DNA of 64,000 nucleotides from Flavobacteriales bacterium (GTDB taxonomy: Bacteria; Bacteroidota; Bacteroidia; Flavobacteriales_F; PHOS-HE28), in contig JAEUSY010000021.1 of the NCBI GenBank assembly GCA_016788295.1, forward strand, positions 1,417 to 65,416. The letters are read 5' to 3'. Below are positions 1 to 57,400 of the stretch, piece by piece (position 1 is the stretch's first letter; each line of letters begins with the position of its first letter). The notes below the pieces were generated by a model. That model saw nothing but the letters and a program-made list of their open reading frames with translations, ran no database searches and was not told where the DNA came from. A program made the translations under genes and the position numbers.

Positions 1-47
1 CATTTGTGGTGTGAACGCATCGTTAATGAACTGAAACACCGCTTACG

Positions 48-413
48 ATGTCTACTAGCAACATCATCTGGCAGGCCCTGAGCGACACCCAGGCGGTGGA
101 GCGGCTGGGCGCGGAGCTGCGGCGCATGCGGCTGGAGCGCAACCTGAGCCAGGCCGAGGTGGCCACCCGCGCCGGCCTGGATCGCACCACCGTGGTGAAG
201 TTGGAGGCTGGTCGCGCCGCCACGTTGCTCACCGTGGTGCAGGTGCTGCGCGCCATCGGGAAGCTGGAGGTGCTCGATGGCTTCCACCAGGAGCCGCAGC
301 CCACGCCCTACATGCTGGTGGAGGCGCAGGAGGAGTACCTGAAGACGCAACGCAAACGAGCGGGGCGCAAGAAGCCCACCGTACTGCCACCCAAACCCAA
401 GAGCACATGGTAA
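48..413 (+). CDS. HipB/Y4mF-like XRE-family HTH antitoxin
   Basis: 121 aa; N-terminal HTH 'LRRMRLERNLSQAEVATRAGLDRTTVVKLEAG'; basic tail; stop overlaps start of downstream HipA-family gene (ATGGTAA, 407-413). Confidence 0.7.
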   Translation: MSTSNIIWQALSDTQAVERLGAELRRMRLERNLSQAEVATRAGLDRTTVVKLEAGRAATLLTVVQVLRAIGKLEVLDGFHQEPQPTPYMLVEAQEEYLKTQRKRAGRKKPTVLPPKPKSTW

Positions 414-1909
414 AGGGTGCCTCCAAGGGCAGCGGTCGGATGGTCCGTGCTGCTCTCCTCCGTTCAGACAAGGCGCGACGAGGAGAGCATATCCGGCGGT
501 ATGCGACTGAGGAGCAACGCAGTATGAACGGAGGAGAGCAGCGCGCCCGCAGGGTTGACGCGAAGCGGCAAGGACGCCGATACGAAGCCCTTGGTGGCAC
601 CCTCTGGCATGCCAAGGTGAGCCTGTGGGGCAGGACGGTGGGCCTGGTGGTGTGGGACGACAAGCAACAACGCGCCACCTTCCAGTTCGACCGCGCCTTC
701 ACGCAGAGCGGGCTGGACGTGGCGCCGATCATGATGCCGCTGGGCCAGGCACGCGGGGGCGACGAGGTGTTCAGCTTCGGCGATGTGCGCGACGAGACCT
801 TCCGTGGGCTGCCGGGCCTGCTGGCCGACAGCCTGCCCGACCGCTTCGGCGAGCAGATCCTGAACGCGTGGCTGGCCACCCAGCGGCGCACGCCCGGCAG
901 CGCCAACCCCGTGGAACGCCTGTGCTACACCGGTCGCCGCGGCATGGGCGCGCTGGAGTTCGAGCCGGCGCACAACGAATGGGAGGCGAGCAGCGAAGCG
1001 CTGGAGGTGGAGGAACTAGTGCGCGTGGCGAACAACGTGCTGTACGAGCGCGCCGCGTTCCGGACGAACAACAAGAAGGGGCGCGAGGAAGCCTTGCTGG
1101 ACATCCTGCAGGTGGGCACCTCGGCCGGCGGCGCGCGGGCCAAGGCGATCGTGGCCTTCAACGCAGAGACCGGCGAGGTGCGCAGTGGCCAGATCGACGG
1201 GCTGCCGGGCTTCACCTATTGCCTGATCAAGTTCGACGGGGTAACGAACGAGAAGCTCGGCGACCCCAAGGGCTACGGACGCATCGAGTACGCCTATCAC
1301 CTGATGGCGCGGGCCTGCGGTGTGGAAATGATGCCCTGCCGATTGCTGGAGGAGCACGGTCGAGCGCACTTCCTGACCCAACGCTTCGACCGCGTGCGCG
1401 ATGCGGAAGGCACGGTGCACAAGCTGCACATGGCCACGCTCTGCGGCATCGCGCACCTGGACTACAACCAGCCGCTGGTGCACAGCTACGAGCAGGCCTT
1501 CCAGGTGATGCGCGTGCTGGGCCTGCCCTACCCCGCCGCCACGGAGCTCTTCCGCCGCATGTGCTTCAACGTGGTGGCCATGAACTGCGACGACCACACG
1601 AAGAACATCAGCTTCCTGATGGACCCGCAGGGAGACTGGCACCTGGCCCCGGCCTATGACGTGACCTACGCCTACCACCCGGACAGCCTGTGGCTGCGGC
1701 AGCACCAAATGAGCATCAACGGGAAGCGCACGGGTATCACCCGCGACGACCTGCTGGCCGTGGCGAAGGCCATGAACATCAAGAAGGCCGCGGCGATCAT
1801 CGACGAAGTGAAGGCCGGTGTGCGGAAGTGGAAGACCTTCGCGAAGAAAGCAGCGATGCCCGCGAAGCAGGTGGAGATGATCGGGAAGATGCACCTGACG
1901 AGGATCTGA
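407..1909 (+). CDS. hipA: HipA-family Ser/Thr kinase (type II TA toxin)
   Basis: 500 aa; HipA-like N-terminal coupling region then kinase core 'CLIKFDG...', 'NCDDHTKNISFLMDPQGDWHLAPAYDVTYAYHP' (HipA C-terminal catalytic motif); start could also be 440 or 524. Confidence 0.8.
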   Translation: MVKGASKGSGRMVRAALLRSDKARRGEHIRRYATEEQRSMNGGEQRARRVDAKRQGRRYEALGGTLWHAKVSLWGRTVGLVVWDDKQQRATFQFDRAFTQSGLDVAPIMMPLGQARGGDEVFSFGDVRDETFRGLPGLLADSLPDRFGEQILNAWLATQRRTPGSANPVERLCYTGRRGMGALEFEPAHNEWEASSEALEVEELVRVANNVLYERAAFRTNNKKGREEALLDILQVGTSAGGARAKAIVAFNAETGEVRSGQIDGLPGFTYCLIKFDGVTNEKLGDPKGYGRIEYAYHLMARACGVEMMPCRLLEEHGRAHFLTQRFDRVRDAEGTVHKLHMATLCGIAHLDYNQPLVHSYEQAFQVMRVLGLPYPAATELFRRMCFNVVAMNCDDHTKNISFLMDPQGDWHLAPAYDVTYAYHPDSLWLRQHQMSINGKRTGITRDDLLAVAKAMNIKKAAAIIDEVKAGVRKWKTFAKKAAMPAKQVEMIGKMHLTRI

Positions 1910-1915
1910 ACACCC

Positions 1916-2554
1916 ATGGAACGTCCGCAACACCTCCCCGCCCCCGCCTTCTTCCAACGCCCACGCCCCACGGCCGATCGCCCGCTGGTGGTGATGATGA
2001 GCGCCTGCCTCGGCGGCATCCACTGCGGCGTGGACGGCAGCGCCAATGGCGACCACACCCCGCTCCGCGCCTGGCTGGTGCGTCCGGAAGTGCGGCTGGT
2101 GAAGTTCTGCCCCGAGGACTTCGCGTTCGGTACGCCGCGCATGACCCCCGACAGCCACGGTGGCAACGGCTTCGATGTGCTGGACGGCAAGGCGCGCTCA
2201 CTGGCCGAGGACGGTACGGACTGGACCGAAGGCATGGTACGGGCCGCGTACGAAATGCGCGACCGGGCCCTGCGCGAGCAAGTGGATGTAGCGATCCTGA
2301 TGGACGTCAGCGGTGCGTGCGGCAGCACGGTGACCTACCGGGGCTCGCGCTTCGCCCCGAACAAGGTGTACCAGCAAGGGCCCGGTGTGGCGGCCGCAGC
2401 ACTGATCCGCGCGGGCATACCGGTGATCTCGCAGCGCGACGACCGCTCGCTGCGCCTGCTGCGCAACCTGCTCGACGGCACACGTACCCTCACAGAGGAA
2501 CGCGACCACTGGGAGAAGGAGTGGTATCAGGAATACTTCGCGCAGCGGCCATGA
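1916..2554 (+). CDS. DUF523 (TudS-like 2-thiouracil/4-thiouridine desulfidase family) protein
   Basis: 212 aa; 'VVMMSACLGGIHCGVDG', 'CPEDFAFGTPRMTP', 'VSGACGS' match the Cys-rich DUF523 pattern (SACLLG..C.YDG / CPE..GG.PTPR / SPSCGS); 7 bp after hipA stop. Confidence 0.55.
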   Translation: MERPQHLPAPAFFQRPRPTADRPLVVMMSACLGGIHCGVDGSANGDHTPLRAWLVRPEVRLVKFCPEDFAFGTPRMTPDSHGGNGFDVLDGKARSLAEDGTDWTEGMVRAAYEMRDRALREQVDVAILMDVSGACGSTVTYRGSRFAPNKVYQQGPGVAAAALIRAGIPVISQRDDRSLRLLRNLLDGTRTLTEERDHWEKEWYQEYFAQRP

Positions 2555-2805
2555 GCAAACACAAACTCGACCTCCACGACATCTTCAACAAGGGTTCGCA
2601 GATCGACGATGCCTTGCGCGAAGCCATGGAGTTCTGCATCGACCGCCGCATCGAGATGCTGGAGATCATCCCCGGCAAGGGCAGCGGGCAGTTGAAGAAG
2701 AAGGTGTTGCGCTTCCTCCAGCTGCCGGAGGTGAAGAAGACCTACCACCGCATCGACAAGGACCGCGACAACTTCGGGCGGCTGTTCGTGCGCTTCAAGC
2801 ATTGA
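2551..2805 (+). CDS. Smr-domain protein
   Basis: 84 aa; 'LDLHDIFN...EIIPGKGSGQLKKKVLRFLQLPEV' is the Smr pattern (DLHG..IIHGKG..L...V..WL); ATGA overlap with DUF523 stop. Confidence 0.6.
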   Translation: MSKHKLDLHDIFNKGSQIDDALREAMEFCIDRRIEMLEIIPGKGSGQLKKKVLRFLQLPEVKKTYHRIDKDRDNFGRLFVRFKH

Positions 2806-2808
2806 GCC

Positions 2809-3492
2809 TCATGGCCGCATCGCGAACCACAGGTGATGCTTGGTGCCTTTGTCGCGGTGCGCGAAGACCTTCTTCTCGTCCACCCGAAAACCCGCCATGC
2901 CCAACCGACGCGTGAACGGGTCGTGCGGATGGGTGGACCATACGGCGAGCACTCCGCCCGGGCGAAGCGCATTATAAGCCGAACGCAGCCCCCGGTGTGA
3001 ATACAGGCGATTGTTCCGGGGTTGGGTCAAGCCTTCAGGTCCATTGTCCGTATCGAGCAGGATAGCGTCATAGCTCCCGTTGCCGGCGCGGATCAATTCA
3101 AGGACATCTCCTTGATGCACCACCGTGCGCGGATCGCTGAGCGGGTTACCCGAACGCTCGCCCATGGGTCCTTGGTTCCACTTGATGACCTCGGGCACCA
3201 GTTCGGCCACGATCACCCTGCCTTTGTTTCCCACCAGGCGCAACACGGCCGCCAGCGTAAAACCCATGCCCAGACCACCAATGACCACATGAGCCTCGGA
3301 AGGCGTGCGCAAGCGTTGAAGCGCCAGATCGGCCAAGGCATCCTCGGACCCATGTATGGCGGTGGACATTAGCTCGCCGGAAATGCCGGCCACCTCGATG
3401 GAGAATTCATCGCCGCGCTGGTAGAGCAGCAATTCGCCGCCGTTATCAGGGATCTGTGCCCGGTCCAAGAGCTTGTTGATGCGCATCTTCAT
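2809..3492 (-). CDS. spermidine-synthase-like (PABS/MTase fold) protein
   Basis: ~227 aa; 'VVIGGLGMGFTLAAVLRLVGNKGRVIVAELVPEVIKW...YDAILLDTDNGPEG' resembles the spermine/spermidine synthase fold; start chosen at MKMRINKLL. Confidence 0.45.
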   Translation of the reverse strand: MKMRINKLLDRAQIPDNGGELLLYQRGDEFSIEVAGISGELMSTAIHGSEDALADLALQRLRTPSEAHVVIGGLGMGFTLAAVLRLVGNKGRVIVAELVPEVIKWNQGPMGERSGNPLSDPRTVVHQGDVLELIRAGNGSYDAILLDTDNGPEGLTQPRNNRLYSHRGLRSAYNALRPGGVLAVWSTHPHDPFTRRLGMAGFRVDEKKVFAHRDKGTKHHLWFAMRP

Positions 3493-3584
3493 CGGTGAAG
3501 CCCGTGCGCATGAGAGGCACAACGGCGGCGCAAGGTCCGATATGCACTCGACATGTCGATCACGCCAAGGTCAGCGCGGATCGA

Positions 3585-3998
3585 TCAACCCTTGGTGCTT
3601 CTGCGAAAGTCCTCGACCATGCGGCCATGGTCGAACCCCATTTCCACCACTTCACCGCGATCCAACCAGCGATGCGCGCGGGCTTCGCTGGTGACCTGAA
3701 GCGATCCGCCCACGACCACGGCATGAAACGCAATGCTGACGAAAGACCCACGCGGGTCACGGCCGGGAGTGGAGTAAATTCCGACCTGCCGCAGTATCCG
3801 TACCTGCAGCCCCACCTCCTCCTCCACCTCACGCACGCAGGCTGCCTCAACGGTCTCGCCGGGATCCACGAAACCTCCGGGAAGCACCCAAGTTCCTTTG
3901 AATGGCTCTGTGCCCCGCTCCATGAGCAGAATACGCCCTTCGTCATCGGTAACGACCGCATCAACGGTCAGAACGACACGGTCCTCGCGAGGGGTCAT
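3585..3998 (-). CDS. NUDIX hydrolase
   Basis: 137 aa; Nudix box 'GGFVDPGETVEAACVREVEEEVGL'. Confidence 0.85.
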   Translation of the reverse strand: MTPREDRVVLTVDAVVTDDEGRILLMERGTEPFKGTWVLPGGFVDPGETVEAACVREVEEEVGLQVRILRQVGIYSTPGRDPRGSFVSIAFHAVVVGGSLQVTSEARAHRWLDRGEVVEMGFDHGRMVEDFRRSTKG

Positions 3999-5943: not shown

Positions 5944-7632
5944 ATGATGAAAAAGACACTACTCGGATGTGGTCTCTTCTTGGCGGCGATGGCCGTACAG
6001 GCACAGATCACCACCTACGTGCTACAGCCGGCTTCGCTGGAAGGAGCACTGGAATTCACTTGGGCGGACAATTGGGGTGCCACGCCCGACCTGAACGATC
6101 CTGCCAACACCATTCAAGGCTTCGCAGCCTTTGTGAATGATGGCACAGCAGCTGACTCACTTGGGTGCAACACGTTGGTCAACAACGCTGAACTGGCCGG
6201 CAAGATCGCCGTGGTGTATCGTGGCACCTGCGAGTTCGGCCTAAAGGCACTGAACGCCCAGACGGCTGGCGCGATCGGGGTCGTCATCATCAACAACCAA
6301 GGCACTCCGATCGCCATGGGTGGTGGTGCGAACGGTGCGAACGTGACCATTCCCGTTGTGATGATCTCCACGGATGCCGGTGCGACCTTGTACAACGAGC
6401 TCCTCGCAGGCAATGTGGAAATGCTGATCGGCAGCGTACAGGGCGTGTACGAGTTCAACCTGCACACCTCATCCAAGCTCGCTTCCATCCCTCAGTACAG
6501 CGCCATGCCAGGTCCCTTGGCCAATGCGATCAACTTCTCGGTGGACATGGGTAGCTGGATCAAGAACTTCGGTTCAGCAGACCAGTCTGATGTTACGGTG
6601 AACTGTGTGGTTACGCAGAACGGTACCGAGGTATACAATAACACCTCTGATGCCGGTTCGATCCTAAGCGGAGACAGCGCATTCTTTGCCCTGCCAGCAT
6701 TCACGCAATCCACATGGAGCGGCTATTACGAGGCCACCTACACGGTTTCCTCACCCAATGCGGATAACTTCCCGAGCGACGACACCTTCGGGTTCAATTT
6801 CTACGCTGGCGACGTGTTCGCCTATGGCCGCATCGACGCAACGACACTTCAGCCCCGTGCCGAGCAGCATGTACGTGCCACTCTTGACGCACCGAGCTTC
6901 ATGGCTTGTTCCTACTTCAGCCACCCGAATGCCAGCGGCTACAAGGTTGAAGGTATCTACACCTCGGCCTCGAAGTCCGGTGGAGCCAGCATGGACGGCG
7001 AAGTGCTCGAAGCCCGTATCTACGAGTGGGCTGATGTGTTCACCGGCTGGAATGATGCCACCACGACCAATATTGTTCTTCTTCAACTCGGAGAGTACTT
7101 CTACGAAGAAGACCTCGGTGGTCAAGTGGTTTATATCCCCTTCACGGAGACCTTCCAGATGGAGGACAACAAGAAGTACCTGTTCTGCAGCTTCTCACCT
7201 TCCACCGATGTTTTCCTTGGCTTCGGTGAATCGCTGGATTACAACAGGATCCAGACCCAGTTGGACCAACCGATCTACCTGATGAACGACAACGGCACCT
7301 GGGGTTCATTCAACGATGCAACGCACACCACCATTGGAGCCAAAATGGTTCCTGCCGATGTGAGCGTGAACGATGCCGATCGCGTGGAGCTCACGCCCTA
7401 CCCGAACCCCACCGCCAATGTGCTTCGCATCCCCTTGACGGGCATGAGCGGTGCAGCCAGCCTGAGCGTGTTCGACCTGACCGGCGCTTTGGTGATGACC
7501 AACAAGGTTGCTATTGGTGGCGACCACACGCTGACCGTGGACCTTCAGTCCCTGGCCAACGGCACCTACATCTTCCGCATGGAATTCGAGAACGGCAAGC
7601 GCTCCGACTTCCGCGTGGTGGTTACCAAGTGA
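5944..7632 (+). CDS. secreted PA-domain protein with T9SS C-terminal sorting domain
   Basis: signal peptide 'MMKKTLLGCGLFLAAMAVQAQ'; PA-domain-like 'KIAVVYRGTCEFGLKALNAQTAGAIGVVIINN'; C-terminus 'YPNPTANVLRI...GTYIFRMEFENGKRSDFRVVVTK' (Por_Secre_tail type A). Confidence 0.7.
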   Translation: MMKKTLLGCGLFLAAMAVQAQITTYVLQPASLEGALEFTWADNWGATPDLNDPANTIQGFAAFVNDGTAADSLGCNTLVNNAELAGKIAVVYRGTCEFGLKALNAQTAGAIGVVIINNQGTPIAMGGGANGANVTIPVVMISTDAGATLYNELLAGNVEMLIGSVQGVYEFNLHTSSKLASIPQYSAMPGPLANAINFSVDMGSWIKNFGSADQSDVTVNCVVTQNGTEVYNNTSDAGSILSGDSAFFALPAFTQSTWSGYYEATYTVSSPNADNFPSDDTFGFNFYAGDVFAYGRIDATTLQPRAEQHVRATLDAPSFMACSYFSHPNASGYKVEGIYTSASKSGGASMDGEVLEARIYEWADVFTGWNDATTTNIVLLQLGEYFYEEDLGGQVVYIPFTETFQMEDNKKYLFCSFSPSTDVFLGFGESLDYNRIQTQLDQPIYLMNDNGTWGSFNDATHTTIGAKMVPADVSVNDADRVELTPYPNPTANVLRIPLTGMSGAASLSVFDLTGALVMTNKVAIGGDHTLTVDLQSLANGTYIFRMEFENGKRSDFRVVVTK

Positions 7633-44725: not shown

Positions 44726-45256
44726 ATGAAACGAACGCCCTTACTGCTACTAACGCTGGTCCTTATGCTTTGCCCGTTCCTTGGCAAGGCACAAGGCCCC
44801 TTGCCGGTGCGCGTGGATGCGTCCCTGGCTGCCCAGTTCATTCAGGCACACCCTGAACATGCCAGGGCCTTTGCTTTTGATAAGAGCAGCGGTTCTGCCA
44901 ATTGTTCGGATGCTGCCGCACTTGCTGCCTTTGACAAGTTCAAAAAGGACCTTCCTACGCTCACTCTGGAGCAGGTATCGGGACAAACTGCAACAGGCAA
45001 CAACAGTGCGCCTATTCCTGCCGATCCCAGTGGTGAACCCCATGGTGATCCAGCCGGTCCGTCATCCCCGAATGGCCCGCAGTCGGCGTCGTTGAACACA
45101 GGAGCAGCAGAGAGCAACTCCATGGCGCCCTTGTCAGGTACGGCAACGCTAAAGGTGGAAAGCGTGGATCCCACCAGTGTTGTAGTTGAGGTTGAACGTG
45201 CAAGCGCTTATGGCGTGCAGGCAACGGACCGACCAACGCACGAACAGCCCAAGTGA
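44726..45256 (+). CDS. secreted low-complexity hypothetical protein
   Basis: 176 aa; signal peptide 'LLLLTLVLMLCPFLGKAQG'. Confidence 0.35.
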   Translation: MKRTPLLLLTLVLMLCPFLGKAQGPLPVRVDASLAAQFIQAHPEHARAFAFDKSSGSANCSDAAALAAFDKFKKDLPTLTLEQVSGQTATGNNSAPIPADPSGEPHGDPAGPSSPNGPQSASLNTGAAESNSMAPLSGTATLKVESVDPTSVVVEVERASAYGVQATDRPTHEQPK

Positions 45257-45347
45257 CCAACTGAACCTTGCCGATGGTGGACCTCTTCTGCGTGTTAGGA
45301 AGCGCGGGAGGCCAGGTCTGTCACGATCAGATCAAAACCCATTGAAC

Positions 45348-48300
45348 ATGAGACCAAATAACCCATTGCGCTACATACTGCGCTCCCTGCTTGTGCTGTT
45401 GGCCGCAGCGCTTGGCACTACCGCATCCGCCCAGGTCAGTACGAACAGCGGCTCCGGATTGAACCCGACGTATCCGGACCTGGCGGCCGCAATAACGGCG
45501 CTGAACAGCGCCAGCATTACCAGCCCGGTAGTGATCACCCTGACGGGCAACGAGACGGCACCCGCTGGCGGGTATGTCATCACAGCTGAGGGTTCTGCGA
45601 CAAACACCATCACCATTCAAGGAAGCGGAAGCACGCTCACGGCCAGCGGCTCGCTCACGGCTGGCAACCTGAACGATGGGATCTTCAAGCTCGTTGGAGG
45701 TGATTGGATCACGATCCAGGGCTTTACCATGCAGGAGAACCCTGCGAACACCACAACGGCTGCTGCAAGCAACAACATGACGGAATGGGGCGTTGCCCTG
45801 CTCTATGCCAGCAACACGAACGGTGCACAGAACAACACCATCCAGAACAACACCATCGCGCTGAACCGCACGTATGGCAACACTTTCGGGGTGTACAGCA
45901 ACGTGCGCCACATTGATGGACCGACCTCGGCGAACGTGACCACGCTCGCCGATATCGCGAACAACACCACGGCCCCGAACAGCGGGAACAAGGTTTACGG
46001 CAACACCATCAGCAACGTGAACCATGGCATTGTGTTCGTGGGCTCTCCGACCGCTGCCAATATGGATCAAGGCAACGACATTGGCGGTGCCTCGGCAGGC
46101 ACGGGCAACAACATCACAGCCTATGGTGGCTTGGCGGCCGCAACGGCCTACGCCGGCTATCCGACAACGATCATCGCAGGCGCGTATTTGTTGAACCAGA
46201 ACAACTTCAACCTCTCCTTCAACTCCTTCATCAGCGCAAGCCTTAACACGGCCACCGCGCTGCGGGGCATTCTGACCGATTACTCGGTGGCACCCATCGG
46301 AGCGATAACCAACACGGTCCTTAGCAACACTGTGACCTTTACCCAAGCGGGTGCCGCCGGTGTACAAGGCATCACCACGGCAGGGGGCTTCCCGATGTCG
46401 AACGTGACCACCAATGTGAATGGGAACAGCTTCGTGAATAACGTGATCACAGGCAATGCCGGCATGTTCGGGATCGCCAACCTTGGTCAGTTCGGCACGC
46501 TGAACATGAACAACAACATCGTCAGCGGCAACACGAGCGCTGCCACCACCCTGGGTTTCACGGGCATCACCAACCAGGGTGCGGTGATCAACACGATAAA
46601 TATCCAGAACAACCAGGTCGGTACCGAATCGACCAATGCGGTGACGTTCTCCACAGCAACTACCGCAGGCATCACCGGCATCAGCAACACGCAAGGCACG
46701 GCAACGACGACGTTGAACATAACCGGCAACTTCCTGCGACGTTTCAGCCTCGTTACGACCGGGCAGTTCGCGGGTATTATCCAATCCAGTGCGAACATCG
46801 GCGTTGCCATCAACCTGAACAACAACAATCTGGGGACCACAACAGCCAATCTGTACACGTACAGCGGGGCTTCAACCAATACGGTCTTCGGTATCGTGAA
46901 CGCAGCAGGTGCCGCCACGGCAACCCTGAACATGACCGGCAACAACATCACGGGGCTTGTACATACGTTGGCGAGGACCGCAGGTGGTCATAACTACTAT
47001 AACAACCAGACCTTCACTGGTTCCACCAACATCAGTAACAACACGATCACCAATGTCACGGACAATTCGGCAGGCACATCGGCCGTGACCATGATCAGCA
47101 ATAGTGTGAGCCATGCCGCAGGCACTACGCATACGGTGAGCAACAACGCGATCGTGGGCAGCTACACCAAGACCGGCGGCAGTGGCCAGATCGCATATTA
47201 CAATTCCTTCGGCTCATCGTCCAGCGCAGTAACGGAGATCAATAATGGCAACAACTTCTCCAACATGAACTTCACCGGAACAACCGGAACGAACATCGGT
47301 TGGCGAAGCGCGGACGGTGCTACACCCGGGTCCAGGAAGACGGTCACGAACAATACGTTCAGCAATATCACAGGCGGCACCGGCGCGATGAGCTCGGTGC
47401 TCTATGTGGGTTTCAGCGACAACACCTTTGCCGGGAACAACGTGAGCGGCAACGTGATCAGCAACATCACGAACGGGAACAGTATCACTGGCATCTTTAG
47501 CGACGGTCAGAACCAGAACTTCTTCAGCAATACGATCGCGGGATTATCGGCCACGGGTGCCAGCGCCATTGTGAACGGCATCTCGCTCACCGGGGCCACA
47601 GTGCAGAACGTGTTCAAGAACAAGATCTACGATCTGCAGGCGAACGGGGCAACCGCCACGGTGAACGGGATCGTTGTATCTGCGGGCGCCACGGTGAACA
47701 TCCACAACAACCTGATCGGCGATCTGCGCGCACCGAGCACAAGTAGTGCAACCGACGCGGTCCGAGGCATCAGCATCACCTCGGCCACAGCGAACGCGAC
47801 GAACAGTGTTTTCTACAACACCATTTACCTGAATGCGACCTCAAGCGGTGCCAACTTCAGCACAGCGGGTGTATTCCATACGGCGAATGCAACAGCCACC
47901 ACGGGGCGTCTGGAGCTCCGCAACAATAGCATCACCAACCTTTCCACCCCGAACGGAACAGGTAACGTGGCGGCATTCAGGCGCAGTTCTGGCGCTGCTG
48001 GAACCCTGAGCAACTATGCGGCCAGCTCGAACAATAACATGCTCTATGCCGGCACACCAGGCGCCAGCACACTGATCTATGCCGATGGGACCAGCACAGC
48101 CCAAACGCTGACAGATTACCAGAACGGCATATTCACGGCCGGTACGGTTGCCCCGCGCGATGCTGCTTCCGTCTCGGGCGACATAACCGCCCAGTTCCTC
48201 AGCACATCCGGTGCAAGTCCGCTATACCTGCACATGGATCCGTTCACACCGACCATTCTGGATGATGCTGGCTCTTTCGTGGCATCCGTGCTTGATGATT

Positions 48301-51300
48301 TCGATGGCAACATCCGCAGCGTGACCACACCTGAGATCGGAGCTGATGAGATATTGGTCCCTTGTGTAGGCACACCGACACCCGGCAACACCACTGCGAG
48401 CGTGAGCAGCGCATGCGTTGGCCAATCGATCACCCTCGGATTGCAGAATGCGAGCACTGGCGATGGTATTAGCTACGCATGGGAATTCGACAACGGCGGC
48501 GGCTGGACAGCCTTCGGCACCAACGCACCCACACAGGTGGTAACCCAATCCGTTGGCACCAGTTACCGTTGCACGGTGAGCTGTTCGGGTGGCGGTAGCG
48601 CAACGAGCGGAGTGATCAGTGTGCCCATGTCCGCTCCTTTCCCAGTGGACTTCGCGCCCTTGACCTTTGCTCCCAACTGCTGGAGCGCCACGGTGAATGC
48701 CAACCTGCTGCGTGCAGCATCCAATGCGTTCAGCGAACCTGGCAGCGGTTCGGCACAATGGAACTTCTACAGCGCGACGAACAACACCATTCTAAGCCTT
48801 ACCAGTCCCACGTTCACACCTGTTGGCGCTGGCCAACAGATACGCTTCGATGTGGCTGGAACGACCTACACTGGCGGCGAGATCGACTCCATCGCTGTCG
48901 AGGTATCGTCCAACGGCGGAACCACTTGGGCCCTGCTCCAAGGCATGTCGAACAACGTGGGTGGCCTGTTGAACACCGCCATCCCGCAAACAGCCAACTT
49001 CGTACCCACGGGTGCGCAATGGAACAGGCTTGCTTTCCCGGTACCGGCCGGCACCGACCGGATCCGATTCCGTGGTCGTTCCAACTTCGGCAACAGCGTA
49101 TACATCGATAACATCGTACTGGAACCAGTACCGACCTGCGTTGCGCCCAGCGGGGTAGCGGCAATTGGAACGTCAACAACTACGGCTAACCTTACTTGGA
49201 ACGGTACCGGCAACTTCATCGTGGAATACGGCCCTGCGGCCACCTTCACCATACCAGGCACCGGTGCTTCCCAAGGACCCGAAGGAACCAGCACGGTAGT
49301 GACCGGTGTGTCTTCGCCCTATACCATCCCCGGCCTCGTACACCCCACTCAATACCGCGTATACGTCCGTCGTGATTGCACGGGGTCCAACGAGGGATAC
49401 AGCATCAACAGCCCTGGCATCACGTTCTACTCGCAGCCACCTTACGACCAGTGCGAGAGCATTACCTCCTTCCCAAGTGTTGGTGCCGGAGGCAGCATCC
49501 TGCTCTCGGGCAACAACTTCGGAGCCACGGATTCCGAAGGCTTTGGCCAGCTGGTATCCTGGGAAGCGTTCACGCTCACCAGCTGTGTCACCACGCTGAA
49601 CATTGATTACTGCGGCAGCACGCCTGCCCGCACCAATGCTTTTGTGAACCTGTTCGTTGGTTGCCCCCAGTCCGCAGGCTTCATCCCCTGGACCGGCACT
49701 GCAGGCCCTGCCTGTCCCAACGGCAGCGTGAACGTTCCATACGCGAACGTACCTGCCGGAACGTACTACATCGCGATCATGAACCAGACAGGTGCTTCGG
49801 GACCTTACGGTATCACAGTGACGGCCGGTGCGGCATGTCCACCTGCACCAGACAATGACCTGTGCAGCAATGCGACACCCATCACCTGTGGCCAAACCCT
49901 GAGCGGAACCACTGTGAACGCCACTACCACGGGTGCGCCGGCCACGCTGTGCAACGGGCTCCTCAACAACACCTCGGGTGGAGTTTGGTACCAGGTCTCC
50001 GGTGTTTGCGGCAGCGTAACAGCTTCGTTGTGCACCACTGTGCCGACCTGGAACTCGAAACTGGCGGTGTACAGTGGCGCTTGCGGTAGCCTTACCTGCG
50101 TGACCACCAACGATGACTTCTGTGGCACGCTCAGCCAAGCCACTTGGACCGCTGATGCTTCACTGACCTACTACATCTACGTGTTGGGCGTGAACGTGAG
50201 CACTTCGGGTACTTTCGATCTGGCGCTCACCTGCGCGAACACCGCAGTGCAGGCATCGGCCACCGCGGTCGATGATTGTGCGAACGATCAGTTCAGCGTA
50301 CCGGTGAACATTACCGGACTTGGCGGTGCCGCTTCGGCCACCATCAATTACAGCGTTAACGGAACGCCCCAGACCCCGCTCAGTGGGTTGGGCATCGGTG
50401 TCACCAACCTCGGCCCCTTCGCGGCCGGAGCTGAAGTGGCCATTACGGTGAGCAATGGTGTTGCGGGTTGTGCCACGAACCTTGGCAGCTACTACAGCAA
50501 CTGCCCGGTCACCATCACCTGCGGATCAACGCTCGTGGTGAACCATTGCTACACCAACAACGATACGCGCACTTGGACCTTCAACTCACCCGTTCTCGGA
50601 GAGACCGTTACCGTGACCTTCGTTGCGGGCACCATGGCCCCGAACGATGTGGTGCGCATCTACGATGGTGTGGACAATACGGGCAGCGTTCTGGTGAGCG
50701 GCAACTTCGCCAGCCTCCCTGGTGTTACCGCCACATCCACCGGACAGAGCATCTTCATTGAGATCGATAGCGATGCGAGCGGAAGCTGCTTCACGGGTGG
50801 TGCCACCTCATGGCAGTTCGAAGTGGAATGCACCGCGGGTTGCACCGATCCGGACGGCGTTGTTTCGCCGAACGTGAACTGCGCCACCTACAGCTTCACG
50901 CTGGATATTGAGATCCTGGGCACGGGCGACGCGGCCACCACCGATCTGGTCTACACCGTGAACGGTGGCAGCCCCATCACCATCCCCGGCCTGGACTTCG
51001 ATAGCGGCATCCAGACCATTGGCCCCTGGCCGATCGGCACCACCATCAACGTGGTACTGGAACACGAGACCGATGGAGCCTGCAACAAGAACCTGGGCAA
51101 CTTCACACCAGGACTTGCCTGTCCGCCTCCTGGAACCTCTTGCGCACTGCCGTTCCAAGTGAACAGCTATCCCTTTACGCAGAGCAACACCACTTGCGGC
51201 AAGGGCAACAACGTGGTCGGCACACAGTGTGGGCTGGGCGCCAACTATGGCGGTGGTGAGGACTTCGTGTACCAATTGAACATCAGCAGCGCGGGTGATT

Positions 51301-54447: not shown

Positions 54448-57400
54448 ATGAATTGTCGAACTACGCGCAAGCCTGCGGCAGGGCGGAAGCGGTGGTGGAA
54501 CGGCCTGCTCGCAATGGCAGTGACCCTTTTGACCGCGCTACCGTCGCTCGCCCAGGTCAGCTATTCGGAGAATTTCAATGCCAGTGCTGGCGGATGGACC
54601 GGCATGGGCTACTTCACAGGCGCCACGGCTTGTGGTGGTTCTGGTGGGGCCATGCGCGCCAACCTGTACTCGTCCGTTACCACCAACAGCTTCGTTTCGC
54701 CGCTGGTGGGAACCTCGCAGGGCGGGGCCATGACCATCACCTACGATTACAAGGCGATGATCTGGAGCGCCAATACGGACGCCCAGAACCCTTGGGGTAG
54801 CTTCATTGTCCAGTATGGCGCTACCGCCTCCGGACCTTGGACCAACATCACCACCATCTCGGAAGAGGCACAGACCAGTGGTGTATGCATACCCAAGTCG
54901 CACTCCTTCACCCCACCGGCAGGTGCCCTGTATATCAGGTTCGCCTCCACATGGTCCTCCGGAGACTACTACCTGAACTTCGACAACATCACGGTGTCCG
55001 AGCAACTGGCACCCTGCACAGAGCCGATCTCCCCGGGTAACACCGTGGCTTCGGTGGCAACACCCTGCTTCAACACCAACTTTACGCTCAGCCTCTCCAC
55101 CCCTCCGGTAGGAAGTGGGCTTGCGTACCAGTGGCAGCGTTCGGCTGACAACACCTTTGCCAGCCCGACGAACCTTGGCACGGCCGCCACGCAGGTCACT
55201 TCGCACGCTTCAGGCGACAACTTTTGGTACCGCTGCCTGGTTAGCTGCAGCGGTGGTGCCCAAGTGGAATCCACTCCGCTCGAAGTTGGGACCAACAGTT
55301 CCGTGGCGCAATGCGGAAACTATTGCACCACCAACCTCTACTCCACCGGTACTGGTGCCGGTGACCTGATCTCGAACGTGGGCATTTCCGGCACCACGCT
55401 CAGCAACAACACGGGCTTCGTGGCCGGTACTCCTTCGTACACCTTCTACCTGCCCAACCCGCCAAGCAACACCCGCACCGCCACCCTGCAGGCCGGTTCT
55501 TCCTACAACGTGAACGTATCCACCGGCGAGTGGGGCGACCAGGGTTTTGCCGTCTGGATCGACTACAACGATGATGGTGTGTTCTCCACGCCTTCGGAGC
55601 GTATCGGTGCCACTCCGGGCCGCATCGGCGCTGGCTTCACGCCAGGCCAGGTGAACGCTTCAGCATCCTTCCCCATCACCCTCGCCTGCAACCCACCCCT
55701 TGGCGTTCACCGCATGCGTGTGCGTTGCGTGTATAACCTCAACGGTGTTAGTGTTGACCCCTGCCTGAACTACACTTGGGGCGAGGTGGAGGATTATCTG
55801 GTGACCATTACTGCACCCGACCCTTGCCCTGCGCCGAGCAACCTGGTTGCCGTGGTGAACGGGAACAGCGCCACGCTGACGTGGAACACCGGCTGCGCCG
55901 AAACACTTTGGAACGTGCATGTGCAACCCGCTGGCGGTGGCACCCCTGTGGTGGCTTCCGACCCCGGCGTGGGCCCCACCTCTTCCTTGGTGGTGAACGG
56001 CCTCGTGAGCGGTACCACCTATGAGTTCTATGTGCAGGCCGATTGCATCGGTGACGGTACCAGCTCATGGGCTGGTCCTGTGCAGTTCGCCCCACCCCCA
56101 TTGAACAACGAATGCACAGGCGTTACCCCCCAAACGGTGGGTGCCTTGGGCAGCGCGACCTTCAACGGCAACAGCACCGGCGCCACGGATACCGAAGGCT
56201 TCGGAGGTCTTGTGGTTTGGGAGGCCTTTACGCTCACCGAATGCGTTCAATCGCTTGAGGTGAACTACTGCGGCAGCAACCCAGCACGCACCGTGGCCTA
56301 TGTGAACCTCTTCACCTCGTGCCCCTTCGGCGCGCAGCCCTTCATCGGCGCCACCAGTGTGCTGAACGACTGCCCCAACGGCGGCCGTAGGCACCTGTAT
56401 GGCAACCTGAGCCCCGGCACCTACTACATCGCCATTTCCGAGGGTATCGCAGGCGGCAGCGGCCCATATTCGGTACAAGTGCTTCCCGGTGCTTCGTGCC
56501 CACCGCCTGCCTGTGTTACAACACCTAACCCCGCTAACGGAGGAACGGCATGCGCTGGTCAGGCAGTAACGCTTAGCTGGCCTGCTGTACAATATGCGAC
56601 CGGTTATGATGTAGTCGTGGACGGCAACACCGTGGCCATCAACCAGCCAGGCACCACCTTCAACGCTGGCATTCTTGCAGCTGGCCCGCACACCTGGAGC
56701 GTTGTGCCCCAGAGCGCACAAGGCCCTGCCACCGGCTGCCCCACCTGGAACTTCACTGCCAACGTGCTCGGTTGCTACTGCGCAAGCGGAGCGATCAACA
56801 CTGGTGACGAGGAGATCTACAGCGTAACGGTGAATGGCAACACCAACGGTGCAGGAGCCGCTGATTGCGGTGTGACCGCACCTGGTTCGGGATCCATTGC
56901 CCAGCGTTATGCCAACTACTTCCCACTGGGTCCGATCTTCTCGGTACAGAAAGGTGTGCAAGCCACATTCAACGTACAGGAGGATGAGTGTGACGGCGCA
57001 CCGTACTACCCCTTCGGCACCGCGATCTGGATCGACTTCGACCAGAACGGCGTGTTCAGCGATGCCACGGAGAAAGTGTTCGTAGAAGCCGCTACGGCCA
57101 CCGGCCCCCGCAACGTGACCGGCACCTTCAACGTGCCCATGACCGCCCTGCTCGGCACCACCGCCATGCGTGTGACCGTTTCCGAGGGCAACTCCGGTGA
57201 CCTGTTGACCTCTTGCCTGAGCTACGGCTACGGCGAGACCGAGGACTACCTGATCACCATTCTGCCACCGCCTCTGCCTGCGACCGCGCTGGTGAGCGTG
57301 GTGGACGACTGCAACGCCGCCACCTTCGACCTGAGCGTTGACATCACCAGCCTTGGCGATGGCGTAAGCGCAACCATCATCTACACCGTGAACGGCGGTT

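What the first reader, a model, noticed from the sequence alone, without database searches (positions are those of the whole stretch)
48..2805. hipB-hipA module co-directional with a DUF523 (TudS-like desulfidase) gene and an Smr nuclease-domain gene
Seen in sequence: four genes on one strand, with hipB/hipA overlapping, DUF523 starting 7 bp after hipA, and smr overlapping DUF523 by ATGA.

Established knowledge:
- HipA phosphorylates aminoacyl-tRNA synthetases.
- DUF523/TudS proteins are [4Fe-4S] desulfidases acting on thiouracil/4-thiouridine. The RudS relatives act on tRNA.
- Smr domains are RNA/DNA nickases used in ribosome-collision rescue.

Inference: this may be a composite toxin or stress module in which all components touch tRNA and translation. 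It may also be coincidental neighbours. The HipA here has an unusually basic ~95-aa N-terminal region.
Basis: partly seen in the sequence, partly recalled or inferred. Interest (0 to 1): 0.5.

Follow-up and report, generated by a model that had tools for sequence, protein, structure and literature searches.

The report
hipBA toxin-antitoxin operon with variable neighbours
This is an ordinary hipB-hipA toxin-antitoxin pair that, in one uncultured Flavobacteriales lineage, sits directly against a thiouracil-desulfidase-like gene and a small Smr gene through local synteny rather than as a fixed four-gene module; the odd N-terminus of HipA is a 192-base palindromic mobile-type element inserted in frame at the hipB/hipA junction.

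Summary
Four co-directional genes are real: hipB 48-413, hipA 407-1909, DUF523/TudS-like 1916-2554 and an 84-aa Smr gene 2551-2805. All four exceed Pfam thresholds, with dN/dS 0.07-0.22 against the closest relative. Spacing is a 7-nt overlap, a 6-nt gap and an ATGA overlap.

The composite translation module is not supported.
- The exact order recurs only in three contigs with 92-93% identical HipA.
- A fourth 93% relative has a membrane-protein gene after hipA.
- In relatives at 74-81% the same genes are shuffled, separated or missing.
- None of 74 hipBA loci with 48-58% HipA identity, from diverse bacterial groups, has DUF523 or Smr nearby.
- Flanking markers (methylmalonyl-CoA mutase, methyltransferase, ABC transporter) are conserved as well, so this is inherited neighbourhood synteny.

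The basic N-terminal region is a net 192-nt (64-codon) in-frame insertion at 414-607. It forms a long hairpin (-119 kcal/mol, z -7.7). It lies at the same junction in two other hipBA lineages, at 87-94% identity against 73-79% for the flanks. Diverged copies sit in unrelated intergenic sites, and 26 of 78 stem pairs covary. It resembles a MITE or Rickettsia palindromic element.

The parts
48..413 (+). hipB: 121-aa HTH (Xre-type) antitoxin gene ending ...KSTW-TAA
   Evidence: Pfam HTH_3 1.6e-10 and HTH_31 1.7e-09. There is a sub-threshold NCBIfam couple_hipB match. It is 74-91% identical to the hipB that precedes hipA in all clade relatives. dN/dS is 0.22 against L082.
407..413 (+). ATGGTAA junction: the hipA start codon (407-409) overlaps the end of hipB (stop 411-413). 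This is a termination-reinitiation type coupling site.
   Evidence: Read directly from the sequence. The same ATGGTAA is present in the insert-free relatives L001, L082 and L085.
414..607 (+). 194-nt imperfect palindrome (MITE/RPE-like element) that replaces the 'CG' of the empty site. The net gain is 192 nt, or 64 codons, in frame with hipA. It encodes the basic extension, residues 3-66.
   Evidence: **Junction and fold.** The alignment to empty sites is. The RNA fold of 400-620 gives -119.4 kcal/mol, z -7.74. There is no Rfam match.

**Other copies at hipBA.** The same insert, at the same site and the same length, is in L081 and L084. It is 87-94% identical there, against 73-79% for the flanks.

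**Copies elsewhere.** Diverged copies lie in non-hipBA intergenic sites in L097 and L098/L099.

**Structure and frame.** Of 78 stem pairs, 26 covary, against 11.2 in shuffles (0/500). The hipA frame has no stop codon in any of the three hipBA copies, while the other forward frames have 1-4.
407..1909 (+). hipA ORF, 500 aa as read from ATG 407. The conserved HipA body begins at about 608-617 and corresponds to the 436-aa homologues.
   Evidence: **Family.** Pfam Couple_hipA (residues 70-185) and HipA_C (238-474). Identity to Flavobacteriales MAG HipA proteins of 436-437 aa is 92-93%. A profile matches the HipT(Lp) kinase at 4.5e-11 and E. coli HipA at 1.5e-4 in the PDB.

**Kinase motifs, invariant in the 14-sequence alignment.**
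- Gly-rich loop VGTSAGGARAK, nt 1112-1144.
- Catalytic DDHTKN, nt 1589-1606.
- Mg-binding PAYD, nt 1649-1660.

**Selection.** dN/dS is 0.10.
1916..2554 (+). DUF523 / TudS-like putative [4Fe-4S] thiouracil desulfidase gene, 212 aa
   Evidence: Pfam 2-thiour_desulf 2.8e-19 and PDB TudS 6z92 at 1.5e-5.

In that alignment:
- Cys31, Cys65 and Cys135 align with the TudS cluster ligands Cys10, Cys43 and Cys104.
- Glu67 aligns with Glu45 and Ser132 with Ser101.
- Ser103 is Ala here and Arg17 is Gly.

Residue roles are taken from PMC10611767. There are 120 or more homologues in the same clade at 52-94% identity. dN/dS is 0.11.
2551..2805 (+). Stand-alone 84-aa Smr-domain gene. DLH is at nt 2569-2577 and GKG at nt 2674-2682.
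   Evidence: Pfam Smr 2.1e-12. The AlphaFold model has pLDDT 89.8. Its best Foldseek PDB matches are the MutS2 Smr domains 2zqe, 9a5o_B and 4och, with probability 1.00 and TM 0.67-0.70. Clade orthologues are nearly always 84 aa and 74-96% identical, and LDLH and PGKG are invariant. dN/dS is 0.065.
2809..3522 (-). Convergent methyltransferase (spermine-synthase-like fold) gene. It marks the downstream boundary of the co-directional block, 3 nt after the smr stop.
   Evidence: Pfam Spermine_synth 3.3e-07. The same Smr-MTase(-) pairing occurs in L082, L092-L095 and L004.

Best explanation
**What it is.** A chromosomal type II hipBA toxin-antitoxin operon: an HTH antitoxin with a translationally coupled HipA-family Ser/Thr kinase. 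It belongs to an uncultured, GC-rich Flavobacteriales lineage.

**Where it sits.** The module occupies a rearrangement-prone stretch between methylmalonyl-CoA mutase and a block of small conserved genes. That block holds a TudS-like DUF523 desulfidase, an 84-aa Smr protein, a methyltransferase, an ABC transporter, NUDIX and AHSA1. In the window's species group the intervening DNA has been lost. As a result hipB-hipA-DUF523-smr abut and are very probably co-transcribed (inferred from the 6-nt gap and the ATGA overlap). DUF523 and smr are independent housekeeping-type genes, not parts of the toxin-antitoxin system.

**How each part most likely works (inferred from family knowledge).**
- HipA phosphorylates a translation factor, such as an aminoacyl-tRNA synthetase, and arrests growth.
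- HipB neutralises HipA and represses the promoter.
- DUF523 desulfurises thiouracil or 4-thio-UMP type compounds.
- Smr is a small nicking nuclease.

**The N-terminal extension (shown).** The 64-residue basic extension of HipA is a net 192-nt in-frame insertion of a hairpin-forming, MITE-like palindromic element. It lies exactly between the coupled start ATGGTAA and codon 4 of hipA.

**Consequence of the insertion (inferred).** The insertion is tolerated because it keeps the frame open. It buries the hipA start codon in the basal stem, so hipA translation probably depends more strictly on ribosomes terminating at hipB.
For: **Gene identity and integrity.**

**Synteny in the clade**.

| Locus (HipA identity to window) | Gene order |
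|---|---|
| L082, L001, L083 (92-93%) | same order as the window |
| L085 (93%) | hipA followed by a membrane protein |
| L086 (81%) | DUF523-ABC-Smr-hipBA |
| L087/L088 (75%) | hipBA-128aa-DUF523-ABM-GNAT-Smr |
| L089 (78%) | hipBA-DUF523, no Smr within 7 kb |
| L084 (75%) | Smr-ABC-hipBA-247aa-DUF523 |
| L081 (76%) | hipBA-GNAT |
| L092-L095, L004, L003, L006 | hipBA then Smr, no DUF523 |
| L005 | hipBA-MTase(-)-Smr |
| L002 | neither gene |
| L096 | Smr without hipBA |
| L090/L091 (DUF523 55% identical) | DUF523 behind an ABC importer, no hipBA or Smr |

**Flanking markers.** Methylmalonyl-CoA mutase, the methyltransferase, the ABC transporter and the PA/T9SS protein are conserved alongside.

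**Distant loci.** In 74 hipBA loci with 48-58% HipA identity there is no DUF523 or Smr by tblastn or by subfamily HMMs. No Pfam family recurs in more than 2 of 115 downstream ORFs.

**Other checks.** There is no PADLOC defence-system match for HipA, DUF523 or Smr. No paper in the library holds both HipA and 'Smr domain'.

**Insertion.**
Against: - Within the clade, Smr lies within about 2.5 kb of hipBA in most lineages sampled despite shuffling. DUF523 is close in about half of them. A clade-specific functional tie therefore cannot be excluded.
- The window itself gives no room for a terminator or separate promoter between hipA and DUF523. In this genome DUF523 and smr expression would therefore be tied to the hipBA promoter.
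- No transcript data, toxicity test or kinase target is available.
- The mobile nature of the insert is not proven. No second copy exists in the 64-kb window or in about 1.1 Mb of fetched loci. No clear target-site duplication is seen at the hipBA copies, and no cognate transposase was identified.
Confidence: 0.72

Rival explanations
1. Four-gene translation-stress module. The HipA kinase, the TudS-like tRNA/s4U desulfidase and the Smr nuclease are co-regulated by HipB and act together on tRNA and stalled ribosomes, at least within this Flavobacteriales clade.
For: - Tight same-strand packing with overlapping or near-overlapping stops and starts.
- The identical order in L082, L001 and L083.
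- Repeated co-localisation of hipBA with Smr and/or DUF523 in relatives at 74-81% despite rearrangement.
- All four genes are under purifying selection.
Against: - Order, orientation and spacing are not conserved, and unrelated genes (ABM, GNAT, ABC transporter, 128-, 247- and 124-aa ORFs) intervene.
- A 93% relative has a different gene after hipA.
- DUF523 is missing from at least five hipBA lineages, and Smr occurs without hipBA.
- No association is seen in 74 distant hipBA loci.
- The unrelated flanking genes are just as well conserved.
- There are no PADLOC matches.
Confidence: 0.12
2. The 192-nt segment is not selfish DNA. It is a dedicated, selected regulatory RNA hairpin and/or a functional basic N-terminal extension of a HipA subtype, spread among hipBA alleles by recombination.
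For: - It is found at exactly the same junction and length in three hipBA lineages that belong to different HipA subclades.
- It is much better conserved than the flanks: dS is 0.11-0.26 in the insert against 0.59-0.94 in hipA.
- Stem covariation is strong.
- The frame is open in all three copies.
- L084 has GTT, not GTG, at the position of a possible downstream start, so its HipA must be translated through the insert.
- A 22-mer scan of metagenome contigs found only another hipBA copy.
Against: - Related copies lie in unrelated intergenic sites with TA/TTAA-like ends, as expected of a repeat family.
- The peptide is weakly constrained: dN/dS is 0.27-0.68, and 11 of 29 variable sites are at second codon positions.
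- Most clade HipA proteins, including the window's closest relatives, lack it.
- The AlphaFold model gives no confident structure for residues 1-78.
Confidence: 0.2
3. The insertion has inactivated hipA, so the locus is a decaying toxin-antitoxin remnant.
For: A -119 kcal/mol hairpin immediately after the start codon would be expected to hinder translation.
Against: - The reading frame is intact over 500 codons in all three insert-bearing alleles.
- The kinase motifs are invariant.
- hipA dN/dS is 0.10-0.30, including comparisons between insert-bearing alleles.
Confidence: 0.08

Closest known systems
E. coli K-12 HipBA type II toxin-antitoxin system
   Same: A bicistronic operon in the order HTH antitoxin then kinase, with overlapping genes. 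HipA has an N-terminal subdomain (Couple_hipA) and a HipA_C kinase core, with a Gly-rich loop carrying Ser/Thr, a catalytic D-x-H-x-K-N motif and a Mg-binding Asp. HipB ends in Trp; that this Trp is a conserved HipB feature is from memory of the HipB literature.
   Different: Sequence similarity is very distant: the profile E-value to E. coli HipA is only about 1e-4 to 1e-3, and NCBIfam equivalogs are not reached. HipB is 121 aa with a long basic tail. The target is unknown. This allele carries a 64-codon insertion after codon 2.
HipT kinase of Legionella pneumophila HipBST (PDB 8ezr, 7vkb)
   Same: It is the best solved-structure match to the kinase core (4.5e-11). NxDxHxKN and PAYD are shared.
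   Different: HipT lacks the N-terminal subdomain, which is supplied in trans by HipS. Here the subdomain is fused as in HipA, and there is no hipS gene.
TudS (DUF523) thiouracil / 4-thio-UMP desulfidase, and RudS (TudS-DUF1722)
   Same: A PF04463 domain. The three [4Fe-4S] Cys ligands, Glu45 and Ser101 are conserved.
   Different: The Ser103 equivalent is Ala and the phosphate-binding Arg17 equivalent is Gly. There are about 25 extra residues at the N-terminus and about 35 at the C-terminus. No DUF1722 domain is present, so it is not a RudS-type tRNA de-modifying enzyme.
Smr domains of MutS2 and SmrB
   Same: The Smr fold is confirmed by Pfam and by structure search. The LDLH and GKG motifs are present.
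   Different: It is only the bare 84-aa domain. There is no MutS2 core or KOW region and no SmrB N-terminal ribosome-binding extension. The motif is PGKG rather than HGxG or TGxG. Neither its substrate nor any ribosome association is known.
Rickettsia palindromic elements (RPE), ERIC and other MITE-type bacterial repeats
   Same: It is short (about 200 bp) and palindromic along its whole length. It is present or absent at orthologous sites and more conserved than the host gene. It is inserted in frame within a protein-coding gene so that it is translated as an extra peptide (the RPE behaviour is summarised in PMC10969869).
   Different: High copy number is not shown: there is one copy in 64 kb. 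Three of the five distinct copies sequenced so far sit at the same hipB/hipA junction. No target-site duplication is evident there, and no transposase partner is known. It occurs in Bacteroidota rather than Rickettsia or enterobacteria.

Membership tests
HipA-family kinase toxin (type II TA) | Couple_hipA N-subdomain plus HipA_C kinase core | tested here: met
   Pfam scores of 60.9 and 171.3 bits, both above the gathering thresholds.
HipA-family kinase toxin (type II TA) | [quoted passage not shown] | tested here: met
   VGTSAGGARAK, DDHTKN and PAYD are invariant in the 14-sequence alignment. The catalytic and Mg-binding motifs align to HipT(Lp) NEDMHLKN and PAYD. The activation loop was not mapped individually.
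HipA-family kinase toxin (type II TA) | Cognate HTH antitoxin gene immediately upstream and translationally coupled | tested here: met
   hipB 48-413 carries HTH_3 and shares the ATGGTAA overlap with hipA. The pair is conserved in every clade locus and in most of the distant loci.
HipA-family kinase toxin (type II TA) | Kinase activity, growth arrest and neutralisation by HipB | not testable with these tools
   This needs expression and phosphoproteomics experiments.
TudS / DUF523 desulfidase | Three Cys ligands of the [4Fe-4S] cluster (TudS Cys10, Cys43, Cys104) | tested here: met
   Cys31, Cys65 and Cys135 align to them. Roles are from PMC10611767.
TudS / DUF523 desulfidase | Catalytic Glu45, Ser101 and Ser103, and phosphate-binding Arg17 | tested here: inconclusive
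   Glu67 and Ser132 are conserved. The Ser103 equivalent is Ala134 and the Arg17 equivalent is Gly38.
RudS (tRNA s4U de-modifying enzyme) | TudS domain fused to DUF1722 | tested here: not met
   Only PF04463 is detected and there is no DUF1722. The definition is from PMC11417400.
Smr domain nuclease | Smr fold with the LDLH and GxG motifs | tested here: met
   Pfam score 47.4 bits against a gathering threshold of 25.7. Foldseek matches the MutS2 Smr domains with probability 1.00. L6-D7-L8-H9 and G42-K43-G44 are invariant.
SmrB/MutS2-type ribosome-collision sensor | Ribosome-binding extension (SmrB N-terminal hook) or the MutS2 clamp/KOW domains (from memory of the SmrB and MutS2 literature) | tested here: not met
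   The protein is only 84 aa, and the Smr domain covers residues 6-83.
MITE / palindromic repeat element (RPE- or ERIC-like) | Short non-coding-size element with terminal inverted repeats | tested here: met
   The element is 194 nt and pairs along its whole length. The ends are AAGGGTGCCTCCAAGGGC and GCCCTTGGTGGCACCCT.
MITE / palindromic repeat element (RPE- or ERIC-like) | Presence/absence polymorphism at orthologous sites, and copies at unrelated loci | tested here: met
   Filled sites are the window, L081 and L084. Empty sites are L001, L082, L085 and others. Diverged copies lie in intergenic sites of L097 and of L098/L099.
MITE / palindromic repeat element (RPE- or ERIC-like) | Target-site duplication | tested here: inconclusive
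   L097 and L098 have TA/TTAA-like flanks. The hipBA copies show ATGGTAA on the left and (C/A)TGGCA on the right, with no clean duplication.
MITE / palindromic repeat element (RPE- or ERIC-like) | Multiple copies per genome and a cognate transposase | tested here: inconclusive
   There is no second copy in the 64-kb window or in about 1.1 Mb of loci. The whole genome was not available, and no transposase was searched for.

The most novel reading that the evidence does not exclude
In this Flavobacteriales clade, hipBA may be functionally wired to its persistent neighbours. HipA-induced tRNA starvation would stall ribosomes. The 84-aa Smr nuclease would process those stalled ribosomes, and the TudS-like enzyme would salvage thiolated nucleotides released from degraded tRNA. 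The junction hairpin element would tune how much toxin is made per antitoxin. The evidence shows only clade-level co-localisation and likely co-transcription in the window. It does not exclude this reading, but it gives no positive support beyond proximity.
Probability: 0.1. Interest if true: 0.6.

Novelty: new member of a known kind. Interest (0 to 1): 0.3.

Why it matters
**The gene cluster.** As a gene cluster it matters little. It is a divergent but canonical hipBA module whose tight neighbours reflect local synteny. It is a caution against inferring function from adjacency in a single genome.

**What is of more interest.**
- hipBA is stably and vertically kept at one chromosomal locus across a whole uncultured Flavobacteriales clade, which is unusual for a toxin-antitoxin pair.
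- An apparently undescribed, structure-conserved palindromic element sits in frame exactly at the antitoxin-stop/toxin-start overlap in three separate hipBA lineages.

**If the hairpin alters coupling.** If it modulates translational coupling, it would be a natural example of a repeat element resetting the toxin:antitoxin ratio. It would also extend 'in-frame selfish DNA', known from Rickettsia, to Bacteroidota.

Tried and rejected
**Searches that found nothing.**
- Rfam scan of 1-3600 at E<=1: no hit.
- Sigma-70 promoter and terminator scan: no promoter, and only two minus-strand terminator-like sites at chance level. The scan is not suited to Bacteroidota.
- Bacteroidota -7 motif TAnnTTTG: no match in 1-3000 and fewer than chance in the whole window.
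- blastn of the insert against PLSDB plasmids: no match.
- PADLOC: only generic HTH hits for HipB.
- Literature searches for HipA with 'Smr domain', and for MITE with hipBA: nothing relevant.

**Searches with flawed or chance results.**
- The first viral-contig scan for the element ends used a gap range that was too short and found nothing.
- The second gave two hits, which nhmmer showed to be chance matches to the end motif only.

**Structure and sequence comparisons of limited use.**
- phmmer of HipA and of Smr against PDB sequences found nothing.
- A profile search worked for HipA but stayed non-significant for Smr. The Smr fold was therefore tested by structure prediction and Foldseek instead.
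- The AlphaFold model of the 500-aa HipA was poor (mean pLDDT 51), so it says nothing about the extension.

**Readings considered and rejected.**
- 'The extension is just an upstream ATG in an open GC-rich frame'. The segment is absent from the closest relatives at a clean junction.
- 'hipA starts at GTG 617'. L084 has GTT at that position.
- A split HipS/HipT arrangement. The N-subdomain is fused to the kinase core.


Full report
**1. Observation**

The first 2.8 kb of the window carry four + strand ORFs.

| Gene | Coordinates | Length | Pfam evidence |
|---|---|---|---|
| hipB | 48-413 | 121 aa | HTH_3, 1.6e-10 |
| hipA | 407-1909 | 500 aa from the first ATG | Couple_hipA 1.8e-16; HipA_C 3e-50 |
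| DUF523 | 1916-2554 | 212 aa | 2-thiour_desulf, 2.8e-19 |
| Smr | 2551-2805 | 84 aa | Smr, 2.1e-12 |

- hipB and hipA overlap in ATGGTAA (407-413).
- Six bases separate the hipA stop from the DUF523 ATG.
- DUF523 and smr overlap in ATGA.

A convergent methyltransferase gene (2809-3522, minus strand) ends 3 nt after smr. NUDIX, AHSA1 and GNAT genes follow on the minus strand.

GC is 63-66% in the first 4 kb and 55-63% elsewhere in the window. All four genes have hundreds of homologues, almost all from uncultured Flavobacteriales MAGs. dN/dS against the nearest relative L082 is 0.22, 0.10, 0.11 and 0.065. They are real, selected genes.

**2. Identity of each gene**

*HipA.* NCBIfam gives only a sub-threshold YjjJ/HipH match. 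Single-sequence phmmer finds nothing in the PDB. A 14-sequence profile matches the Legionella HipT kinase at 4.5e-11 and E. coli HipA at about 1e-4. The kinase is therefore a divergent HipA-type kinase. It keeps the fused N-subdomain, the Gly-rich loop VGTSAGGARAK, the catalytic DDHTKN and the Mg-binding PAYD, all invariant among relatives. The motif list is from PMC8262856.

*DUF523.* It aligns to TudS (6z92, 1.5e-5).
- All three cluster cysteines, Glu45 and Ser101 are conserved.
- The Ser103 equivalent is Ala and the phosphate-binding Arg17 equivalent is Gly (residue roles from PMC10611767).
- It has no DUF1722, so it is not a RudS-type tRNA enzyme (PMC11417400).

*Smr.* The model is confident (pLDDT 89.8). 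Its best PDB matches are MutS2 Smr domains (probability 1.00, TM 0.67-0.70). LDLH and GKG are invariant. It is a bare domain without the ribosome-binding parts of SmrB or MutS2.

**3. Is the four-gene arrangement conserved?**

I collected 80 genomic hipA loci and contexts from the HipA, DUF523 and Smr sides. I mapped all marker genes by tblastn and by local HMMs.

The window's order hipB-hipA-DUF523-smr recurs only in L082, L001 and L083, where HipA is 92-93% identical. L085, also 93%, has a membrane-protein gene 4 nt after hipA.

At 74-81% HipA identity the same genes are nearby, but in different arrangements.

| Locus | Gene order |
|---|---|
| L086 | DUF523-ABC-Smr-hipB-hipA |
| L087/L088 | hipBA-128aa-DUF523-ABM-GNAT-Smr |
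| L089 | hipBA-DUF523, no Smr |
| L084 | Smr-ABC-hipBA-247aa-DUF523 |
| L081 | hipBA-GNAT |
| L092-L095 | hipBA-800 nt-Smr-MTase(-)-ABC |
| L004 | hipBA-Smr, 10-nt gap |
| L003 | hipBA-124aa-Smr |
| L006 | hipBA-329 nt-Smr |
| L005 | hipBA-MTase(-)-Smr |
| L002 | neither gene |
| L096 | Smr beside IS256 fragments, no hipBA |

A 55% DUF523 homologue follows an iron/B12-type ABC importer, with no hipBA or Smr (L090/L091).

Methylmalonyl-CoA mutase lies upstream. The methyltransferase, the ABC transporter, AHSA1 and a PA/T9SS protein lie downstream. These markers accompany the region in the same genomes. The signal is therefore general neighbourhood synteny with frequent indels and inversions. 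The variable cargo includes an IS3 transposase, an AAA ATPase, nSTAND and a PKD protein.

In 74 hipBA loci with 48-58% HipA identity, from diverse bacterial groups, no DUF523 or Smr is found within about 6 kb. Among 115 same-strand downstream ORFs there, no Pfam family occurs more than twice. PADLOC has no model matching HipA, DUF523 or Smr. No paper in the library mentions HipA together with Smr domains.

*Conclusion.* The genes are likely co-transcribed in this genome, but they are not a conserved composite module.

**4. The odd HipA N-terminus**

*The insertion.* Homologous HipA proteins are 436-437 aa and begin MVTHA. The closest relatives read ...ACATGGTAA-CG-CATGCC.... The window reads ...ACATGGTAA-[194 nt, 414-607]-CATGCC.... 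This is a net gain of 192 nt, or 64 codons, in frame.

*Structure.* The segment is an imperfect palindrome. As RNA it folds at -119.4 kcal/mol (z -7.74, no shuffle as stable). The hipA ATG lies in the basal stem. There is no Rfam match.

*Other hipBA copies.* The same insertion, at the same junction and length, is in L081 (87% identical) and L084 (94%). Flanking hipB and hipA are only 73-79% identical. dS is 0.11-0.26 in the insert and 0.59-0.94 in hipA.

*Phylogeny.* On a HipA tree the three insert-bearing alleles fall in three different subclades, each with insert-free sisters. More distant HipA proteins also start MVT. The empty state is therefore ancestral. The insert has either been gained repeatedly or been moved between alleles.

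*Coding status.* The hipA frame has no stop in any copy, while the other forward frames have 1-4. L084 has GTT where the window has a possible GTG restart, so the insert must be translated. The peptide itself is weakly constrained: dN/dS is 0.27-0.68, and 11 of 29 variable sites are at second codon positions. The AlphaFold model is uninformative for this region.

*Related copies elsewhere.* An exhaustive peptide search of 1.8 billion representative proteins gave three hits.
- One is a truncated L084-type HipA.
- Two are short ORFs called across diverged copies of the element in unrelated intergenic sites. L097 lies between Iron_permease and DUF892 genes. L098/L099 lie next to a MarR gene.
- Their ends are CTAAAGGGTGCC...GGTACCCTATAG and CTTAAGGGTGCC...GGTACCCTTAAG.

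*Covariation.* Across the five distinct copies, 78 stem pairs are predicted and 26 show compensatory double changes. Shuffles give 11.2 (0/500) and slid controls give at most 4. Of all cells, 92.8% are paired.

*Copy number.* No further copy exists in the 64-kb window or in about 1.1 Mb of fetched loci. A 22-mer scan of metagenome contigs found only L084.

*Closest analogy.* The best match is a MITE-type palindromic repeat inserted in frame, as described for Rickettsia palindromic elements (PMC10969869). Copy number, target duplication and transposase remain unresolved.

**5. Mechanism**

*Shown.* The hipBA architecture, intact kinase motifs, purifying selection, tight packing, the in-frame insertion and the conserved hairpin.

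*Inferred from family knowledge.* HipA arrests translation by phosphorylating a translation factor. HipB neutralises it and autoregulates the promoter. DUF523 desulfurises thiouracil-type substrates. Smr nicks nucleic acid.

*Inferred from anatomy.*
- DUF523 and smr ride on the hipBA transcript in this lineage.
- Ribosomes terminating at the hipB TAA reinitiate at the overlapping ATG and must unwind the hairpin. The insert therefore probably makes hipA translation more dependent on hipB translation, and it adds a disordered basic tail.

**6. Verdict**

| Item | Verdict |
|---|---|
| Observation | Confirmed |
| Composite-module interpretation | Not supported beyond clade-level co-localisation (probability about 0.1) |
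| Basic N-terminus | Explained by a repeat-element insertion |
| The hipBA locus | An ordinary new member of the HipBA family |
| The junction element | A modestly interesting side finding |

Noticed in passing
window 414-607; also L081 574-767, L084 6849-7042 (minus strand), L097 about 375-581, L098 about 279-486: A palindromic repeat family of about 200 nt with no match in Rfam 15. Its ends are AAGGGTGCC...GGYACCCTT-like and stem covariation is strong. Three copies sit in frame at the hipB/hipA junction and two in unrelated intergenic sites. How it reached the identical junction in three HipA subclades is unexplained.
   Followed up: yes
L082 2328-5396; L087 2891-4417; L092 2764-4182: The interval between methylmalonyl-CoA mutase and hipB holds different cargo in each relative: an AAA_15/AAA_21 ATPase plus an IS3-family transposase, an nSTAND1 NTPase, or a PKD/T9SS protein. 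It looks like an integration or defence hotspot next to a vertically retained hipBA.
   Followed up: partly
P0130 (350 aa) and P0193 (361 aa): Two DUF523 homologues are annotated as fusions with a GNAT acetyltransferase domain. GNAT genes also flank DUF523 or hipA in L081, L084 and L087. It was not checked whether these are true fusions or merged gene calls.
   Followed up: no
window 45186-54035 and 54448-63186 (+): Two adjacent giant ORFs of 2949 and 2912 aa carry C-terminal Por_Secre_tail (T9SS sorting) domains. The second also has three GEVED domains and an fn3 domain. They are probably secreted surface or adhesin proteins.
   Followed up: partly
window 5944-7632 (+): A PA-domain protein with a T9SS C-terminal tail. 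It is conserved as a downstream synteny marker in L006, L086, L087 and L092 at 44-64% identity.
   Followed up: partly
window 1-64000: No tRNA or tmRNA gene occurs in the whole 64-kb window. The Bacteroidota -7 promoter motif TAnnTTTG occurs only 4 times, against about 11 expected by chance.
   Followed up: no
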